A stretch of 8,063 nucleotides of DNA, taken from the IMG/VR virus record IMGVR_UViG_2600254977_000002; one strand, 5' to 3'. Below the pieces are notes generated by a model. It searched no databases, had not been told where the DNA came from, and saw nothing but the letters and a program-made list of their open reading frames with translations. Within the stretch, counting starts at the first letter, position 1, and every line of letters begins with the position of its first letter. Both the position numbers and the translations under genes were made by a program. Below are positions 1 to 8,063 of this stretch, one piece after another. The DNA comes from a virus. Taxonomy: Duplodnaviria; Heunggongvirae; Uroviricota; Caudoviricetes.

Positions 1-2595
1 GAACAGACCACCATCGCGCATCTGTGCCTGGATTTCATCACGGGCACCCTTGCGGGCCATGTCATACACCGCCTTCATCATCTGTGGACCTGGCAGACCA
101 TTCGTACCGTCGTTCTGAATCACCACGTTGTTGTTCTGCTCAAACCTGATACCCTCTGAACGCCGCATTTGCGCCGGACTTCCGGTGCCACCGACATAAC
201 CGCCGGTGGCATAGCCGCGCATCAGCCGGTAGAGATTTCCCACGCCAATCCGGCTGGTTGCCTCCTTCGTGAAGACAAATTCACCACGGTGAACAATCCC
301 CGCTGGCTCATATTTGCCGCCGGTTCCCGTAAATCCTCCGGTTGCAAAATGGAGTTTCGCCGCAGCGGCCTGAATGGCTGTACCGCCTGACGCGGATGCG
401 CCGCCACCAACAGCCCCGCCAATAGCGCTGCCGATACTCCCGACAATCCCCACCATTGCCTGCTTAAGCAGAATTTCTGTCATCATGGACAGCACGGAAC
501 GGGTGAAGCTGCGCCAGTTCTGTTCACTGCCGGTCAGCATCGCCGCCATATTCTGCGCAATACCATCAAAGGTCTGCGTGGCAGCACTTTTAACCTGCGA
601 CATACTGTCCGTGGCACTCTCTTCCCACTCACTCCAGCCGGACTTCAGGCCTGCCATCCAGTTCCCGCGAAGCAGGTCTTCAGCCGCCCTGGTCTTTTTC
701 TGCTCTGACATGACGTTATTCAGCGCCAGAGGATTATCGCCATACTGTTCCTTCAGGCGCTGTTCCGTGGCTTCCCGTTCTGCCTGCCGGTCAGTCAGCC
801 CCCGGCTTTTCGCATCAATAGCGGCCCGTTTTGCCCGTTGCTGCTGTGCGAATTTATCCGCCTGCTGCGCCAGCGCGTTCAGGCGCTCCTGATACGTAAC
901 CTTGTCGCCAAGTGCAGCCAGCTGGCGTTTGTACTCCAGCGTCTCATCTTTATGCGCCAGCAGGGATTTCTCCTGTGCAGACAGCTGGCGACGTTGCGCC
1001 GCCTCCTCCAGTACCGCGAACTGACTCTCCGCCTTCCACAAATCCCGGCGCTGCTGGCTGATTTTCTCATTTGCTCCGGCATGCTTCTCCAGCGTCCGGA
1101 GTTCAGCCTGAAGCGTCAGCAGGGCAGCATGAGCACTGTCTTCCTGACGATCGCCCGCAGACACCTTCACGCCGGACTGTTTCGGCTTTTTCAGCGTCGC
1201 TTCATAATCCTTTTTCGCCGCCGCCATCAGCGTGTTGTAATCTGCCTGCAGGATTTTCCCGTCTTTCAGTGCCTTGTTCAGTTCTTCCTGACGGGCGGTA
1301 TATTTCTCCAGCGGTGTCTGCAGCCGTTCGTAAGCCTTCTGCGCCTCTTCGGTATATTTCAGCCGTGATGCTTCGGTATCGCTCTGCTGCTGCGCATTTT
1401 TGTCCTGTTGACTCTGCTGTTCAGCCTTCTTTCGGGCGGCTTCAAGCGCAAGACGGGCCTTTTCACGATCATCCCAGTAACGCGCCCGCGCTTCATCGTT
1501 AACAAAATAATCATCCTTGCGCAGATTCCAGATGTCGTCCGCTTTCTTAAACGCAGCCTCTGCCTTAATCAGCATCTCCTGAGCGGTATCAGGACGACCA
1601 ATATCCAGCACCGCATCCCACATGGATTTGAATGCCCGTGCTGTCCTGTCTGCCCAGGTTTCCAGCGTGCCCATGTTCTCTTTCAGGCGTCGGGTCTGGT
1701 CATCAAACCCTTTCGTTGCGGCCTCGTTCGCCGCCTGCAATGCCCCGGATTCATCGCCGGAACGCTGCAACTGAGCAACATACGCAATCTGCTCCGCCGT
1801 TACGTTATGGAACTGGCGCGCCATCGCCGTCAGCCCCGACGTCGGGTCAGTGGTCAGCTTCCCGAAGGCTTCAGCGACCTTGTCCACCTCCACGCCGGAT
1901 GCAGAGGAGAAACGCGCCACACTCTGGCTGATGGATGCAATCTGAGCCTCACCGCTTACTCCCGCCTTAACCAGTGCGCTGAGTGACTCGCTGGTCTGGT
2001 TAAACGTCAGCCCTGCCGCCTGCCCGGCTCTGGACAGGACCAGCATACGATCTGCCGTCAGACCCGACTGATTGCCGGAAAGGACCAGCGTTTTGTTGAA
2101 ATCGGACAGGGTTGAGTTACCCTGATACCAGGCATACGCCAGCGCACCGGTCGCCACCGCCAGCGAGGTGGCCCCGACCATCGGCAGGGTGATCGCACCG
2201 GCAAGCCCCCGGAACATGGGGATCATCCCGCCGAAGGAGTCCTTAACCTGACCACCCTGTTGCAGCAGGATCAGCCACGGGCTTTGCCCGCCTGCAAGCT
2301 GCGTGGCCACGTCGGTGAACTGTGCAGGCAGCATACGCATGGCGGCTTTATACTGCCCGACGGAACTCCCCGCTTTCTGTGCAGCCAGCGCCNNNNNNNN
2401 NNNNNNNNNNNNNNNNNNNNNNNNNNNNNNNNNNNNNNNNGCCTGTCGGCTCAGCGACTGTTCAACGACTGCCGCTGTTTTTTTCGCATCACTTTCCGTA
2501 CCGGAAAAATGACGCCTGACTCTGGCCATCTGCTCGTCAAATCTGGCCGCATCCAGACTTAAATCAACGACCAGATCGCCTACCGGTTCAGCCAT
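1..2595 (-). CDS. H: Tail tape measure protein (lambda gpH-like); 3' end lies beyond window start; contains a 48-nt N block
   Basis: Hand translation from the ATG at 2595..2593 gives MAEPVGDLVVDLSLDAARFDEQMARVRRHFSGTESDAKKTAAVVEQSLSRQA, matching the recalled lambda gpH N-terminus. The reverse complement of 1..120 gives ...NDGTNGLPGPQMMKAVYDMARKGARDEIQAQMRDGGLF in the same frame (2595 nt = 865 codons), matching the gpH C-terminal region and stopping about 5 codons short of its end. No stop-terminated ORF in this frame appears in the ORF track across 1..2595. The start overlaps the T stop codon (2588..2590). Confidence 0.9.
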   Translation of the reverse strand, partial: MAEPVGDLVVDLSLDAARFDEQMARVRRHFSGTESDAKKTAAVVEQSLSRQXXXXXXXXXXXXXXXXXALAAQKAGSSVGQYKAAMRMLPAQFTDVATQLAGGQSPWLILLQQGGQVKDSFGGMIPMFRGLAGAITLPMVGATSLAVATGALAYAWYQGNSTLSDFNKTLVLSGNQSGLTADRMLVLSRAGQAAGLTFNQTSESLSALVKAGVSGEAQIASISQSVARFSSASGVEVDKVAEAFGKLTTDPTSGLTAMARQFHNVTAEQIAYVAQLQRSGDESGALQAANEAATKGFDDQTRRLKENMGTLETWADRTARAFKSMWDAVLDIGRPDTAQEMLIKAEAAFKKADDIWNLRKDDYFVNDEARARYWDDREKARLALEAARKKAEQQSQQDKNAQQQSDTEASRLKYTEEAQKAYERLQTPLEKYTARQEELNKALKDGKILQADYNTLMAAAKKDYEATLKKPKQSGVKVSAGDRQEDSAHAALLTLQAELRTLEKHAGANEKISQQRRDLWKAESQFAVLEEAAQRRQLSAQEKSLLAHKDETLEYKRQLAALGDKVTYQERLNALAQQADKFAQQQRAKRAAIDAKSRGLTDRQAEREATEQRLKEQYGDNPLALNNVMSEQKKTRAAEDLLRGNWMAGLKSGWSEWEESATDSMSQVKSAATQTFDGIAQNMAAMLTGSEQNWRSFTRSVLSMMTEILLKQAMVGIVGSIGSAIGGAVGGGASASGGTAIQAAAAKLHFATGGFTGTGGKYEPAGIVHRGEFVFTKEATSRIGVGNLYRLMRGYATGGYVGGTGSPAQMRRSEGIRFEQNNNVVIQNDGTNGLPGPQMMKAVYDMARKGARDEIQAQMRDGGLF
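2393..2440. other. Run of 48 N (unresolved or masked sequence) inside the tape measure gene
   Basis: Directly visible as n characters at 2393..2440. Its length is a multiple of 3 and the H reading frame is continuous across it. Confidence 0.99.
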
Positions 2596-3426
2596 ACCGG
2601 ACTCCTCCTGCGATCCCTTCTGATACTGTCATCAGCATTACGTCATCCTCCGTCATGCCCGCCATATCCGGGGAAGCGGGGATAACTTCATTCCCGTCCG
2701 GGCCAAAGCGGACGCCTCCGGTAAGCCCTGCCGCTTTCTGCATCAGCACATCATCTTCAGGCTCTTCGTCATCCTCACGCCGGTTCAGCAAACTGAAATC
2801 CAGCGGATGCATATCCGGATCGCTGAAAAACAGGCTGAGCACAGTGTACGTCAGCCCGGAAAAGTGCATATCCAGCAGAACATCATGAAAATAATGGGTA
2901 CTGTAAAAGCGGTGCCAGTCGGCATACTCCGTGGATGACATCCCGGCAAGCATGGCGCGCCAGTCAGGTCGCCCCATCTCTCGCGCCAGTTTCAGGGCAA
3001 AACTCAGCTCACCGTCGAACACTTTCCCGCAGAAACAGGCTCTGCAGGCCCGGAGTCCTCTGCCTGGTCAGGGGCATCATTCACCACAAACCCATACATA
3101 CCGGACAGCCGGTACACCACGTTTTCAGCATGAGAAATTGCCTCCGCGGGCCAGGTGGTAAGCACTTCCTGCTCAATCTGTTTAACGGCTTCATTCATGG
3201 AAGGCTGCTTTGTCTTCTGCGGATGGTTATGCCACAGGGACATCGCCACCACAAAAGCACCGGTTCTGATGGCGTCTTCCACAGTAACCTGCCGGTTGCT
3301 GTCTGACTCCGCCTGTTCTGCCTGCTGTTTCATCAGGGCGAGATGCTCAATACGCTGCAGGGCTGACAGTTCAGAAAGCGTGACGGTCACGCCGTTATGT
3401 TCAAATGATTCGGTTTTCAGGAACAT
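2588..3426 (-). CDS. T: Tail assembly chaperone G-T fusion (lambda gpGT-like), made by -1 programmed ribosomal frameshift at 3028..3022; T portion is 2588..3022
   Basis: The ORF 2588..3022 (MFDGELSFALKLAREMGRPDWRAMLAGMSS...) matches recalled lambda gpT. The T frame is -1 relative to G and has no independent ribosome-binding context. The slippery heptamer G GGA AAG sits at the G/T junction. Confidence 0.88.
3004..3426 (-). CDS. G: Tail assembly chaperone (lambda gpG-like), 140 aa
   Basis: MFLKTESFEHNGVTVTLSELSALQRIEHLALMKQQAEQAESDS...AGKCSTVS is near-identical to recalled lambda gpG. GGAGAG Shine-Dalgarno lies upstream of the ATG at 3426. Confidence 0.93.
   Translation of the reverse strand: MFLKTESFEHNGVTVTLSELSALQRIEHLALMKQQAEQAESDSNRQVTVEDAIRTGAFVVAMSLWHNHPQKTKQPSMNEAVKQIEQEVLTTWPAEAISHAENVVYRLSGMYGFVVNDAPDQAEDSGPAEPVSAGKCSTVS
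3022..3028 (-). other. -1 programmed ribosomal frameshift slippery site (GGGAAAG) for G to G-T
   Basis: Plus strand 3022..3028 is cTTTCCC, so the minus strand reads G GGA AAG in the G frame (codons 134-135, ...A-G-K-C-S-T-V-S-stop). After -1 slippage the next codon is GTG (3022..3020), the first codon of the T ORF. Confidence 0.85.
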
Positions 3427-3441
3427 CGCTGACTCTCCGGA

Positions 3442-4182
3442 TTAACTGTCGGTGACAGTGATTTCTGCAACCGCAGCAAGTTCACCATTACCGGATACAA
3501 CCGGAATGTTGACCTTGCCTGCAGCAACGCCGTTCACGGTGATGGTCATACCACTGACCGACACGGTGGCTTTTGTTTTATCCGCTGACACCGCACGGAA
3601 GCTCTTGTCAGTTGCGCCCTCCGGCTGGAAGGCCACGGTCAGCGTGGTGCTCTGCCCTTTCACCACCGAGGAGCTGGCAGGCGTCACGGTCATACCGGTT
3701 GCCGCCGTCACCGTACTGCGATCTTCTGCCATTGACGGACGGCCCACATTGGTGACCTTCACCGTACGGGTGATCACTTCCTTCGCCGTCACCGCCTTAC
3801 CGATACTGCTGACCCAGCCGCGGAACACATCGACCGTGCCGTTCGGGAAGCGGATTTTATAGGCACGGGTATCACCTTCATTAAACCACGCCAGCAGCGC
3901 CTGCTGCCCCTGCTCTCCGGGCATCCACGCCAGCGTGAAGCTGGTATCTCCGGCGGATTTCTGCCCCTGCCCGGTCGCGGTCCAGTCCGCATCTTCATCA
4001 TCGAGATAACTGTCGTCATAGGACTCAGCGGTCAGTTCGCCGGGCGTCAGGTCTTTAATTTTTGCCAGACGCGACCAGTCATTGTCTGAAAGCGGGTTTG
4101 CATAAGGGTCGCCGCTCCCGTTATAAACCCACAGTGTGGTCCCGGCCCCTTTCACCGGTGCCAGAGGATTTGGTGTTGGCAT
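3442..4182 (-). CDS. V: Major tail tube protein (lambda gpV-like), 246 aa, with C-terminal Ig-like (Big_2-type) domain
   Basis: From the ATG at 4182..4180: [33 protein letters not shown]...[23 protein letters not shown], near-identical to recalled lambda gpV. The track ORF begins at 4212, but the internal Met gives the lambda-length product. GAGGA Shine-Dalgarno overlaps the U stop. Confidence 0.94.
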
Positions 4183-4189
4183 ATCGTCC

Positions 4190-4585
4190 TCACATTTCAT
4201 AGGTAATGACATAAGTCAGATCGGCTGAACTCCACAGGCCCGCATCATCGTCGCGCCGGTAGTCATAGCCACTGGCCACCATACTGGTGATCAAATCTGA
4301 CAGTGCCGGGATATCGCTCATCACCGGATAAATCCGGGACTCCATCCACGAATCCAGCTCTGAATCCGGCACCTGAGCAGGCAGGAAAACTTCAATATGC
4401 AGCTCCGCCTGCCAGGTATCGCTGTCCAGCTCTTCGCCCGTGTATTCAGCGCCGGTGAGATAAACGGCAATTGCCGGAAAATCTTCCTCATCAAAAACAG
4501 CAGGGCGACCATCAAAAAGCGTCGCCCCGGTGTCATGCTTCTCCAGTGCATCCAGTACGGCTGCACGGAGTTCAGTATGTTTCAT
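4190..4585 (-). CDS. U: Tail tube terminator protein (lambda gpU-like), 131 aa
   Basis: [131 protein letters not shown] is near-identical to recalled lambda gpU. Its ATG overlaps the Z stop as ATGA (4582..4585). Confidence 0.94.
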
Positions 4586-5160
4586 CGCTTTATTACCATT
4601 CTCAGTTGATGCTGCAGCGCATAGCCCAGCTCTTTCGGAAGACGCTCACGCCGTATCCGCTCAATATTCTGTTTAAACGCCGTGGTCAGCGGCACCGCCA
4701 TCGGGATTTTCACCACATCAATGGGGTAACGGTTTTTCCCGGCCACACGCTGCATGACATGCCACCGGCCATTTTTCAGTTGCTGAATAAACGCGCCGGG
4801 AATACGACGGTTTCCCACCACAAGCACGCTGCCGCCACCTTTCAGGGATGAACGCTGCCCCTTTTTACGACGCCTGCGTCGGGACAGGACAACCCGCGCG
4901 TTACCCAGCCTGATTACGGGCAAATCCCCCCGGTTAACTTTGATTCTGGCCTGCGGATTTTTGACCGTGGCCCTTTTCAGCCTGGCCCTTTCCTTTACCA
5001 GTTTCCGGCGTACCTTTGTCTCACGGGCAACCAGTGACGCCGACTGCGATATCGCGGATGAAGCAACGCGGTTAATGGCCATTGCGGCGGCACCAGGCAC
5101 TGCCGTTTTGCTGATACGGCTGAGGTTTTCAACGGCCTGCTCAAGACCTTTTATGGCCAT
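4582..5160 (-). CDS. Z: Tail completion protein (lambda gpZ-like), 192 aa
   Basis: From the internal Met at 5160..5158: MAIKGLEQAVENLSRISKTAVPGAAAMAINRVASSAISQSAS...LRMVIKR, matching recalled lambda gpZ. AAGGGGGA Shine-Dalgarno lies upstream. The track ORF start at 5226 is an in-frame upstream extension overlapping FII. Confidence 0.92.
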   Translation of the reverse strand: MAIKGLEQAVENLSRISKTAVPGAAAMAINRVASSAISQSASLVARETKVRRKLVKERARLKRATVKNPQARIKVNRGDLPVIRLGNARVVLSRRRRRKKGQRSSLKGGGSVLVVGNRRIPGAFIQQLKNGRWHVMQRVAGKNRYPIDVVKIPMAVPLTTAFKQNIERIRRERLPKELGYALQHQLRMVIKR

Positions 5161-5171
5161 ACATCCCCCTT

Positions 5172-5525
5172 TCAGCGGCGACGGCTGGCGGCAGGTGGTT
5201 GCCCCCGGTTGAGCCAGAGATAACAACTCCCTCCGTCATCCGGAGAAACACGGTCCACCCAGAACATCTCGCCGTTAATGGTCAGCGTGTCACCACGCCG
5301 TACAGCACAAACCGTATCCGTAAGCACAAATAATGACGGGTTACTTCCTTCAATACGGATCCCACTACTGGCAAAACCCAGCGACTCCGGATCGTCAAAA
5401 ACGCCATGAACCTCGCCGCCACGCTGTGCACCGGAGGTGAACTGCGCACTGATGCCCATCACTTCAACAATCGTACTGTCCACCCCGGCAAGGGCGGCAT
5501 CAAAGGCATTCTGAAAATCACGCAT
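5172..5525 (-). CDS. FII: Head-tail joining protein (lambda gpFII-like), 117 aa
   Basis: From the internal Met at 5525..5523: MRDFQNAFDAALAGVDSTIVEVMGISAQFTSGAQRGGEVHGVFDDPESLGFASSGIRIEGSNPSLFVLTDTVCAVRRGDTLTINGEMFWVDRVSPDDGGSCYLWLNRGQPPAASRRR. It is collinear with recalled lambda gpFII and becomes increasingly similar toward the C-terminus (…FWVDRVSPDDGGSC…). The start overlaps the FI stop (5518..5520). Confidence 0.9.
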   Translation of the reverse strand: MRDFQNAFDAALAGVDSTIVEVMGISAQFTSGAQRGGEVHGVFDDPESLGFASSGIRIEGSNPSLFVLTDTVCAVRRGDTLTINGEMFWVDRVSPDDGGSCYLWLNRGQPPAASRRR

Positions 5526-7413: not shown

Positions 7414-8063
7414 TCATGGCATGGCCATGAGCATTTTCACGTCCGCATCACCGTCTGCTGACGTCTGTGCCACGCCACCCTGTACCGCTGCCGGTGAATG
7501 GTTCGCCATGAAATGTTCAAACATGGCGGTTGTGGATGCAGAGACCGGTTCTGCCTTACCTGATCCCGCAGCCAGCACAGCCCGGGCGCTCTCCACTGTC
7601 ATTCCCGGGCAGGCAGCCAGCTGTTCAGCCTGCGCCTCAGCCCCTTTTGCCTCATCCAGTGCCATGATCTGATCACGGAGTGATGGTCCGGCATCCGCCT
7701 GCGGTGAAGCAGCCAGGATCGGGCGGGCTTTTTCCACCGTCATCTCCGGCATCGCCGCCAGCGTTGCCGCCAGTTGTTCACGACCGTTCGCTTCTTCACA
7801 CACCATAATGCGATCGGCTTCACTCTGCGTGGATGCCACCGGCTGCTGCGGTGCCGCCGCGGCCAGAATCGCCCGGGCCTGTTCAACGCTCATGCCCTGT
7901 TGTCCTGCCAGCATCGTGGCAAGCTGTTCACGTCCTTTCGCTTCCTGGCATGTCAGGATCCCCATCACTCGCTGGTTCTCCTGCGCGGCGGCTTCCGTTG
8001 CAGTTAATTGCGGCATAGTGCCTCCTCTGACATTACTGTTCAGCGCCGTGGCCATCACACTGA
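7414..8063 (-). CDS. C: C-terminal part of head maturation protease / nested scaffold (lambda gpC / Nu3-like); 5' end lies beyond window end
   Basis: The translation contains ENQRVMGILTCQEAKGREQLATMLAGQQGMSVEQARAILAAAAP, matching the recalled lambda gpC/Nu3 C-terminal motif ENSRIMGILNCEEAHGREEQARVLAETPGMTVKTARRILAAAP. The in-frame codon at 8061..8059 is AGT with no stop, so the frame stays open to the window edge. The stop is at 7414..7416. Confidence 0.88.
   Translation of the reverse strand, partial: SVMATALNSNVRGGTMPQLTATEAAAQENQRVMGILTCQEAKGREQLATMLAGQQGMSVEQARAILAAAAPQQPVASTQSEADRIMVCEEANGREQLAATLAAMPEMTVEKARPILAASPQADAGPSLRDQIMALDEAKGAEAQAEQLAACPGMTVESARAVLAAGSGKAEPVSASTTAMFEHFMANHSPAAVQGGVAQTSADGDADVKMLMAMP
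7567..7971 (-). repeat. Three tandem in-frame copies of a ~35-40 aa scaffold motif (IMxxxEAxGREQLAxxLAxxPGMTVExARxILAA) within C/Nu3
   Basis: Copy 1 is residues ~30-68 (7855..7971), copy 2 is ~83-117 (7708..7812) and copy 3 is ~130-164 (7567..7671) of the in-window ORF. The spacing is 47-53 codons, and the similarity is also visible at nucleotide level (e.g. GAAGCGAA[A/C]GG[A/T]CGTGAACA[G/A]CT). Confidence 0.8.

What the first reader, a model, noticed from the sequence alone, without database searches (positions are those of the whole stretch)
3022..3028. Conserved G to G-T -1 programmed frameshift site (GGGAAAG)
The G ORF ends ...A-G-K-C-S-T-V-S-stop, with GGA AAG at codons 134-135 preceded by G. 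The T ORF is in the -1 frame and begins immediately at GTG (3022..3020). This reproduces the lambda gpG/gpGT recoding architecture, which yields a low-ratio G-T fusion needed for tail assembly. Automated annotation usually miscalls T as a separate GTG-initiated gene or misses it.
Basis: partly seen in the sequence, partly recalled or inferred. Interest (0 to 1): 0.4.

Follow-up and report, generated by a model that had tools for sequence, protein, structure and literature searches.

The report
Lambda G/GT tail-chaperone frameshift site

Summary
Confirmed and already known. On the minus strand, GGGAAAG lies at 3028..3022. It is phased G_GGA_AAG at codons 134-135 of a 140-codon gpG homologue (3426..3004), five codons before the G stop. 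The -1 frame is open from 3067 and runs 144 codons from GTG 3022 to 2588; it encodes a gpT homologue. The locus lies between the major tail protein gene V and the tape measure gene H.

The G-T DNA is 99.8% identical to phage 21 and about 97% to lambda. The heptamer and 65 nt around it are identical to lambda, where the shift was shown experimentally (about 4%, G:GT about 30:1). The whole window, apart from a masked insertion in H, matches E. coli chromosomal prophages at 100%.

The motif alone is not above chance (1 found, 1.24 expected). Its phase, position and conservation are what count. All 80 close relatives keep it. Diverged relatives carry A_AAA_AAG, G_GAA_AAG or A_AAA_TAG at the same junction, and the codon at GTG 3022 is often not a start codon there.

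No conserved RNA stimulator was found. RefSeq and PGAP still annotate T as a separate GTG gene. Interest is low.

The parts
3022..3028 (-). Slippery heptamer G_GGA_AAG (codons 134-135 of G, plus the preceding G)
   Evidence: Read directly from the sequence. Identical in sequence and position to lambda 10109..10115. Kept in 80/80 close IMG/VR relatives.
3004..3426 (-). Gene G, tail assembly chaperone (140 aa), the zero-frame product
   Evidence: PF06894 Phage_TAC_2, E 1.3e-57. TIGR01674 phage_lambda_G equivalog, E 8.7e-63. SD-like GGAGA 7 nt upstream of the ATG.
2588..3022 (-). T segment in the -1 frame (144 codons plus stop), read only after the shift; annotated elsewhere as a separate GTG gene
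   Evidence: PF06223 Phage_tail_T, E 2.8e-14. TIGR01715 phage_lam_T equivalog, E 7.1e-56. Frame relation computed.
3004..3067 (-). 64-nt stretch in which both the G frame and the -1 (T) frame are open
   Evidence: the T frame is open from 3067 and the G stop is at 3006..3004.
2588..3426 (-). Predicted GT fusion coding region, join(3426..3022, 3022..2588), 279 aa, junction ...PVSAGK|VFDGELS...
   Evidence: phrog_32165 (290 positions) matches G at profile positions 1-142 and T at 140-285. Phage 21 annotates the equivalent joined CDS.
3442..4182 (-). Gene V, major tail tube protein with a C-terminal Ig-like domain (upstream neighbour)
   Evidence: PF16461 Phage_TTP_12, E 1.3e-70, and PF02368 Big_2. 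The 246-aa start follows the phage 21 and lambda annotation.
1..2595 (-). Gene H, tape measure protein (downstream neighbour). It runs off the left end of the window, and its ATG overlaps the end of T by 8 nt.
   Evidence: PF06791 TMP_2, E 2.8e-69, and PF09718 Tape_meas_lam_C. Start located.

Best explanation
This is the lambda-type G/GT programmed -1 ribosomal frameshift of a lambdoid (phage 21/lambda-like) prophage of E. coli. Most ribosomes translating G read G_GGA_AAG in the zero frame and stop five codons later, giving the 140-aa chaperone gpG. A small fraction, about 4% in lambda, slip back one base on the heptamer: tRNA-Gly moves from GGA to GGG and tRNA-Lys(mnm5s2UUU) from AAG to AAA. 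They then read GTG as Val and continue for 144 codons, giving a 279-aa gpGT. By the lambda model, the G part of both proteins coats the tape measure protein gpH, and the T part of the rare gpGT recruits the major tail protein gpV. The slip rate therefore sets the G:GT ratio (about 30:1) needed for tail assembly, and neither protein ends up in the virion. Shown here: the sequence, phase and frame layout, the homology, the synteny and the conservation. Inferred from lambda, not measured here: that the shift happens, its rate, and the roles of the proteins.
For: The heptamer is in phase, five codons before the G stop, and opens a 144-codon -1 ORF. G and T are equivalog-level matches to lambda gpG and gpT. 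They lie between V and H. The G-T DNA is 99.8% identical to phage 21, where GT is annotated as a joined CDS, and about 97% to lambda; the heptamer and 65 nt around it are identical to lambda. All 80 close relatives keep GGGAAAG, while neighbouring synonymous sites vary. In diverged relatives the amino acids at the site change but a Lys-codon slip motif stays in phase at the junction: A_AAA_AAG in two Stx phages, and G_GAA_AAG in phi80, mEp237, mEp043, Gifsy-2, mEp460, 569R4 and a Providencia phage. Among more distant loci, 75/80 have G_GAA_AAG and 5/80 have A_AAA_TAG. T-frame homology starts exactly at the last base of the motif. phrog_32165, a fused-GT family, covers both halves contiguously. 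Literature: lambda G/GT uses G_GGA_AAG, with about 96% zero frame and a 30:1 ratio, and is sensitive to tRNA-Lys thiolation (PMC5009743; PMC3296357; PMC7618472).
Against: Nothing was measured for this prophage. The heptamer by itself is no more frequent than chance. No stimulatory RNA element was detected: the downstream fold has z = -1.49, the alifold covariation term is -0.16, and there is no Rfam hit. This fits a low-efficiency site but adds no positive support. A GTG codon does sit at the start of the T frame, so independent initiation cannot be excluded from sequence alone.
Confidence: 0.95

Rival explanations
1. T is an ordinary separate gene, translated from its own GTG start at 3022 as RefSeq and PGAP annotate it, and the heptamer is incidental.
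For: A GTG codon is present at 3022..3020. Lambda RefSeq and PGAP on the identical E. coli prophage annotate a 144-codon T CDS from that GTG.
Against: Anti-SD pairing upstream of this GTG is weak and misplaced: -4.3 kcal/mol with 1-nt spacing, against -10.3 for H and -6.6 for G at 7-nt spacing. In relatives, the codon at this position is GCA, GCC, GTC or GTA, none of them a start codon, yet T homology begins exactly there and the slip motif is kept. A fused-GT PHROG family matches both halves. The lambda literature describes T only as part of the frameshift product gpGT.
Confidence: 0.03
2. The G-T fusion arises by RNA polymerase (transcriptional) slippage, not by ribosomal slippage.
For: Nothing specific was found. 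Transcriptional slippage is a known alternative route to frameshifted products (review PMC5009743).
Against: The site has only three consecutive A and three consecutive G. From my own knowledge, not a tool result, transcriptional slippage needs considerably longer homopolymer runs. In lambda, the G:GT ratio responds to tRNA-Lys anticodon modification, which is a translational effect.
Confidence: 0.01
3. The heptamer is a chance match, and no fusion is made in this (possibly defective) prophage.
For: GGGAAAG is expected 1.24 times by chance in a window of this size. The window alone does not show that the prophage is intact or expressed.
Against: Its phase, its position next to the stop, the 144-codon -1 ORF, identity with the proven lambda site and conservation across relatives are jointly very unlikely by chance. 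Every gene from Nu3 to H in the window is intact as far as it can be read.
Confidence: 0.01

Closest known systems
Phage lambda G/GT -1 programmed ribosomal frameshift (Levin, Hendrix and Casjens 1993; Xu, Hendrix and Duda 2004, 2013, 2014)
   Same: Same heptamer, G_GGA_AAG, at the same codons (134-135 of a 140-codon G), with the same 64-nt overlap, the same 144-codon T frame and the same V-G-T-H order. DNA is about 97% identical, and 65 nt around the site are identical.
   Different: About 3% nucleotide differences elsewhere in G and T. The head genes of this prophage are of phage 21 type, not lambda type. Nothing differs at the recoding site.
Phage 21 tape measure chaperone G/GT (OL657228, CPT_21_14 and CPT_21_15)
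   Same: 99.8% DNA identity over G-T. The frameshift product is already annotated there as a joined CDS.
   Different: Two nucleotide differences in the T part; T protein identity 98.6%. The window is a chromosomal prophage copy.
Tail assembly chaperone frameshifts of other long-tailed phages (phi80, N15-like mEp phages, Gifsy-2, Stx phages)
   Same: Homologous G and T, the same position between the tail tube and tape measure genes, and a -1 shift on a Lys-codon motif at the end of G.
   Different: Their motifs differ: A_AAA_AAG, G_GAA_AAG or A_AAA_TAG. The distance to the G stop is 0 to 5 codons. Their T is shorter, about 110 to 117 aa, and lacks the C-terminal extension of about 35 aa seen in lambda-type T.
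E. coli dnaX -1 frameshift (A_AAA_AAG with an upstream SD-like element and a downstream hairpin)
   Same: A -1 tandem slip that relies on the single E. coli tRNA-Lys re-pairing from AAG to AAA.
   Different: No SD-like element upstream, no significant or conserved downstream hairpin, and no Rfam match. Efficiency in lambda is a few percent. The purpose is a fixed ratio of an assembly chaperone.

Membership tests
Lambda-type tail assembly chaperone G/GT -1 frameshift | Upstream ORF is a gpG homologue | tested here: met
   PF06894, E 1.3e-57. TIGR01674 equivalog, 210 bits against a cut-off of 74.
Lambda-type tail assembly chaperone G/GT -1 frameshift | Downstream ORF is a gpT homologue | tested here: met
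   PF06223, E 2.8e-14. TIGR01715 equivalog, 187 bits against a cut-off of 77.
Lambda-type tail assembly chaperone G/GT -1 frameshift | The pair lies between the major tail protein gene and the tape measure gene | tested here: met
   V (PF16461 and Big_2) lies upstream at 4182..3442. H (TMP_2 and Tape_meas_lam_C) lies downstream from 2595.
Lambda-type tail assembly chaperone G/GT -1 frameshift | The downstream ORF is in the -1 frame and overlaps the 3' end of the upstream ORF | tested here: met
   The T frame is open from 3067 and the G stop is at 3004, a 64-nt overlap in the -1 relation.
Lambda-type tail assembly chaperone G/GT -1 frameshift | An in-phase slippery heptamer X_XXY_YYZ inside the overlap | tested here: met
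   G_GGA_AAG at 3028..3022, in phase. It is the only one of seven in-phase heptamers in the window with a long -1 ORF behind it.
Lambda-type tail assembly chaperone G/GT -1 frameshift | The site is orthologous to the experimentally proven lambda site | tested here: met
   Alignment A1: same column and same codon number, with 65 nt of identical context.
Lambda-type tail assembly chaperone G/GT -1 frameshift | The slip motif, not a T start codon, is what relatives conserve | tested here: met
   80/80 close relatives keep the heptamer. Diverged relatives keep an in-phase Lys-codon slip motif, ending in A_AAG in 75 of 80 distant loci and reading A_AAA followed directly by the TAG stop in the other 5, while the first T codon is GCA, GCC, GTC or GTA.
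Lambda-type tail assembly chaperone G/GT -1 frameshift | T has no translation start of its own in this sequence | tested here: inconclusive
   A GTG is present at 3022. Anti-SD pairing is weak (-4.3 kcal/mol) with 1-nt spacing. This argues against initiation but does not exclude it.
Lambda-type tail assembly chaperone G/GT -1 frameshift | A GT fusion protein is actually made at a few percent of G | not testable with these tools
   Known for lambda only: about 4%, ratio 30:1. Testing it here needs protein or reporter work.
dnaX-type stimulated -1 frameshift | An upstream SD-like stimulator and a downstream stem-loop | tested here: not met
   No SD-like element in the 20 nt upstream. The downstream 92-nt fold has z = -1.49, and 21/200 shuffles fold as well. 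The consensus fold of 12 relatives is -13.1 kcal/mol with a covariation term of -0.16. No Rfam family matches.

The most novel reading that the evidence does not exclude
Nothing about the site in this window departs from lambda. The most novel reading the evidence leaves open concerns the relatives. The T family uses at least four junction motifs: G_GGA_AAG, A_AAA_AAG, G_GAA_AAG and A_AAA_TAG. The last two cannot re-pair both tRNAs. This would imply a single-tRNA slip (tRNA-Lys in the A site, or in the P site next to a stop codon), perhaps with different G:GT ratios in different lineages. This is probably covered, at least in part, by Xu et al. 2004 and later recoding surveys, which I could not read here.
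Probability: 0.15. Interest if true: 0.2.

Novelty: already known. Interest (0 to 1): 0.05.

Why it matters
For biology, very little: this is a further copy of one of the best-studied recoding sites, in a prophage found in many E. coli genomes (4053 of 5426 complete genomes have some match to the window). For annotation it has practical value. RefSeq lambda and PGAP still give T as a free-standing GTG gene, and many phage records give a truncated T. The real product, the 279-aa GT fusion, is therefore missing from most protein sets.

Tried and rejected
- **Rfam:** a scan of the whole window at gathering thresholds gave no match.
- **Downstream stimulator, single sequence:** the 92 nt after the heptamer fold no better than shuffles (z = -1.49).
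- **Downstream stimulator, comparative:** the consensus fold of 12 relatives is weak, with essentially no covariation. I rejected a conserved stimulator.
- **Upstream stimulator:** no SD-like element was seen.
- **Solved structures:** a PDB sequence search with the 279-aa fusion found nothing.
- **Relatives in IMG/VR:** the first scan returned only near-identical sequences. I repeated it with a distant T as the lead sequence to obtain diversity.
- **Xu et al. 2013 (PMC3762263):** not held in the library (one search failed on a term format). Details of Levin 1993 and Xu 2004, 2013 and 2014 rest on reviews that cite them.
- **Masked stretch in H:** pattern scans for the flanks of the N-run with a 36-60 nt gap found nothing in viral contigs or genome contigs.
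- **Transcriptional slippage and a chance match:** both were considered and rejected (see the rival explanations).

Full report
**Observation.** The genes of this window are on the minus strand. Plus-strand 3022..3028 reads CTTTCCC, which is GGGAAAG on the minus strand from 3028 to 3022. A 140-codon ORF runs 3426..3004 and ends ...PVSAGKCSTVS-stop. The first base of the heptamer lies at offset 398 of that ORF, so the phase is G_GGA_AAG. GGA is codon 134 and AAG is codon 135, five codons before the stop. The -1 frame is open from 3067, giving a 64-nt overlap. From GTG 3022..3020 it runs 144 codons to a stop at 2590..2588. A -1 slip on the heptamer predicts a 279-aa protein with the junction ...AGK|VFDGELS.

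**What the ORFs are.**
- The upstream ORF is a gpG tail assembly chaperone: PF06894, E 1.3e-57, and NCBIfam equivalog TIGR01674, E 8.7e-63.
- The -1 ORF is gpT: PF06223, E 2.8e-14, and equivalog TIGR01715, E 7.1e-56.
- Upstream lie U and the major tail protein V, which matches Phage_TTP_12 and Big_2.
- Downstream lies the tape measure protein H, which matches TMP_2 and Tape_meas_lam_C. Its ATG at 2595 overlaps the end of T.
- The rest of the window is the lambdoid late operon, in the order C/Nu3, D, E, FI, FII, Z.
- PHROG family 32165 has 290 profile positions. It matches G at positions 1-142 and T at positions 140-285, so it is a family of annotated GT fusion proteins that covers both halves contiguously.

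**Where it comes from.**
- The 839-nt G-T segment is 99.8% identical to phage 21 and phage ev017, and about 97% identical to lambda and many lambda-like phages.
- Aligned with lambda and phage 21, the heptamer is in the same column, and 65 nt around it are identical in all three. The lambda coordinates are 10109..10115, with T annotated from 10115.
- The whole window matches chromosomal prophages of E. coli strains such as GN02100 and UPEC129 at 100% and IHE3034 at 99.9%. The exception is a masked insertion in H, described below.
- This is therefore the lambda G/GT site itself, in a phage 21/lambda-like prophage.

**Is it more than chance?**
- The bare heptamer is not. It occurs once on both strands, against 1.24 expected from shuffles.
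- The specificity comes from context. The ten genes of the window hold seven in-phase X_XXY_YYZ heptamers. From my own arithmetic, about ten are expected for roughly 2,600 codons at 1/256 each.
- Six of the seven open -1 frames of only 2 to 46 codons, and all six lie far from the stop of their gene.
- Only the one in G lies next to the stop, opens a 144-codon -1 ORF, and has A_AAG as its second half. Recoding reviews list G_GGA_AAG among the most shift-prone heptamers in E. coli.

**Comparative evidence.**
- All 80 close relatives fetched from IMG/VR keep GGGAAAG followed by GTG, five codons before the G stop. Nearby synonymous positions vary among them: CCT/CCC/CCA, GAC/GAT and GCG/GTG.
- Thirteen phages with T identity from 98% down to 36% were examined in detail.
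  - Stx2a and PhiR5_1 phages keep GGGAAAG.
  - Stx1_1649 and Stx2_14744 have A_AAA_AAG at the same position. The encoded residues change from Gly-Lys to Lys-Lys, but the site stays slippery.
  - mEp237, mEp043, phi80, Gifsy-2, 569R4, mEp460 and Providencia phage PSTCR8lys have G_GAA_AAG, zero to five codons before the G stop.
- In every case, T-frame homology begins at the last base of the motif (VFDGEL, AFEGEL, ALASEL, VLNNEL, VLTREM, VARRER).
- The codon at that position is GTG only in the lambda-like set. Elsewhere it is GCA, GCC, GTC or GTA, none of which is a start codon.
- Among 80 more distant loci, 75 have G_GAA_AAG in phase at the junction. The other five have A_AAA followed directly by the TAG stop.
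- What is conserved is a lysine-codon slip site at the G/T junction, not an initiation codon for T.

**Stimulatory elements.** No stimulatory element was found.
- No Rfam family matches.
- The 92 nt after the heptamer fold to -34.9 kcal/mol, z = -1.49, and 21 of 200 shuffles fold at least as well.
- The consensus fold of 12 relatives is weak, at -13.1 kcal/mol with a covariation term of -0.16.
- There is no SD-like element upstream of the heptamer.
- This fits a low-efficiency site that depends mainly on the heptamer, but it adds no positive evidence.

**Rival: T is translated on its own.** A GTG is present, and RefSeq lambda and PGAP annotate T from it. Anti-SD pairing upstream of it is weak and misplaced, at -4.3 kcal/mol with 1-nt spacing. 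The values for H and G are -10.3 and -6.6 kcal/mol, both with 7-nt spacing. Together with the missing start codon in relatives, I put this rival at about 3%. Transcriptional slippage is unlikely with runs of only three G and three A. In lambda the G:GT ratio also responds to tRNA-Lys thiolation, which is a translational effect.

**Mechanism, taken from lambda and not measured here.**
- About 96% of ribosomes stay in frame and make gpG. About 4% slip -1 on G_GGA_AAG and make gpGT, for a ratio of about 30:1.
- gpG and the G part of gpGT bind the tape measure protein gpH.
- Neither protein is in the finished virion.
- Loss of thiolation (hypomodification) of tRNA-Lys(mnm5s2UUU) raises the shift and lowers phage yield.

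**Annotation.** Phage 21 (OL657228) carries the joined GT CDS. Lambda RefSeq and PGAP give T as a separate 144-codon gene. Several phage records give a truncated T from a downstream start.

**Verdict.** The feature is already known, an exact copy of a textbook recoding site, and interest is low.

**Asides.**
- Gene H carries a 48-N run at 2393..2440. With an adjacent GGC, this forms a 51-nt in-frame extra stretch relative to lambda, phage 21 and the otherwise identical E. coli prophages. No sequence with such an insertion was found in two public collections.
- The scaffold ORF 7414..8058 contains three tandem repeats of about 45 aa and has no Pfam match.
- No solved structure is related by sequence to G or GT.

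Noticed in passing
window 2393..2440 (gene H, minus strand): A run of 48 N lies inside the tape measure gene. Relative to lambda, phage 21 and the otherwise 100%-identical E. coli GN02100 prophage, the window has 51 extra in-frame bases here (GGC plus 48 N, 17 codons) after H residues ...SLSRQA. Next to it is one substitution, Ile to Ser. The content is masked. It could be a 51-nt tandem duplication, which would lengthen the tape measure, or a mask added by the pipeline. Scans with the flanks and a 36-60 nt gap found nothing in viral contigs or genome contigs.
   Followed up: partly
L006:792-798 and L007:792-798 (Stx1_1649, Stx2_14744): At the position of the lambda heptamer these Stx phages carry A_AAA_AAG, the dnaX-type heptamer. 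The G residues there change from Gly-Lys to Lys-Lys, but the site stays slippery. The G:GT ratio might differ from lambda.
   Followed up: partly
L008-L014 (mEp237, mEp043, phi80, Gifsy-2, 569R4, mEp460, PSTCR8lys) and 75 of the loci L095-L174: The junction motif is G_GAA_AAG, which is not X_XXY_YYZ. Only the Lys tRNA can re-pair fully after a -1 shift, which suggests a slip dominated by the A-site tRNA. The motif lies zero to five codons before the G stop.
   Followed up: partly
L098, L099, L102, L103, L152, around position 895-904: Five distant relatives end G with GCA (or GAA) AAA TAG. The only possible -1 slip there is tRNA-Lys moving from AAA to AAA with the stop codon in the A site, a 'shifty stop' arrangement.
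   Followed up: no
window 7414..8058 (minus strand), the Nu3-like scaffold part of gene C: The 214-aa ORF has no Pfam match. It contains three tandem repeats of about 45 aa, with the consensus I-M-x-C-x-E-A-x-G-R-E-Q-L-A-x-x-L-A...M-T-V-E-x-A-R-x-I-L-A-A. The reading frame stays open to the right end of the window, as expected for the nested C/Nu3 gene pair.
   Followed up: partly
window 4810..4816 and 4858..4864 (gene Z, minus strand): Two more in-phase slippery-type heptamers, G_GGA_AAC and A_AAG_GGG, are followed by -1 frames of 30 and 46 codons, far from the end of the gene. They are most likely chance matches.
   Followed up: no
window 2588..2595, 4582..4585, 5518..5525: Short overlaps between successive late genes: the end of T with the H start (ATGGCTGA, 8 nt), the end of Z with the U start (ATGA, 4 nt), and the end of FI with the FII start (8 nt). 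This is the usual layout for translational coupling. The longest ORFs for V, Z, FI and FII start upstream of the starts annotated in phage 21 and lambda.
   Followed up: no
L003 (E. coli GN02100, NZ_CP147567) and L002 (lambda NC_001416): PGAP and RefSeq annotate 'phage tail assembly protein T' as a free-standing CDS from the GTG, with no ribosomal-slippage join. The 279-aa GT product is therefore absent from these protein sets.
   Followed up: yes
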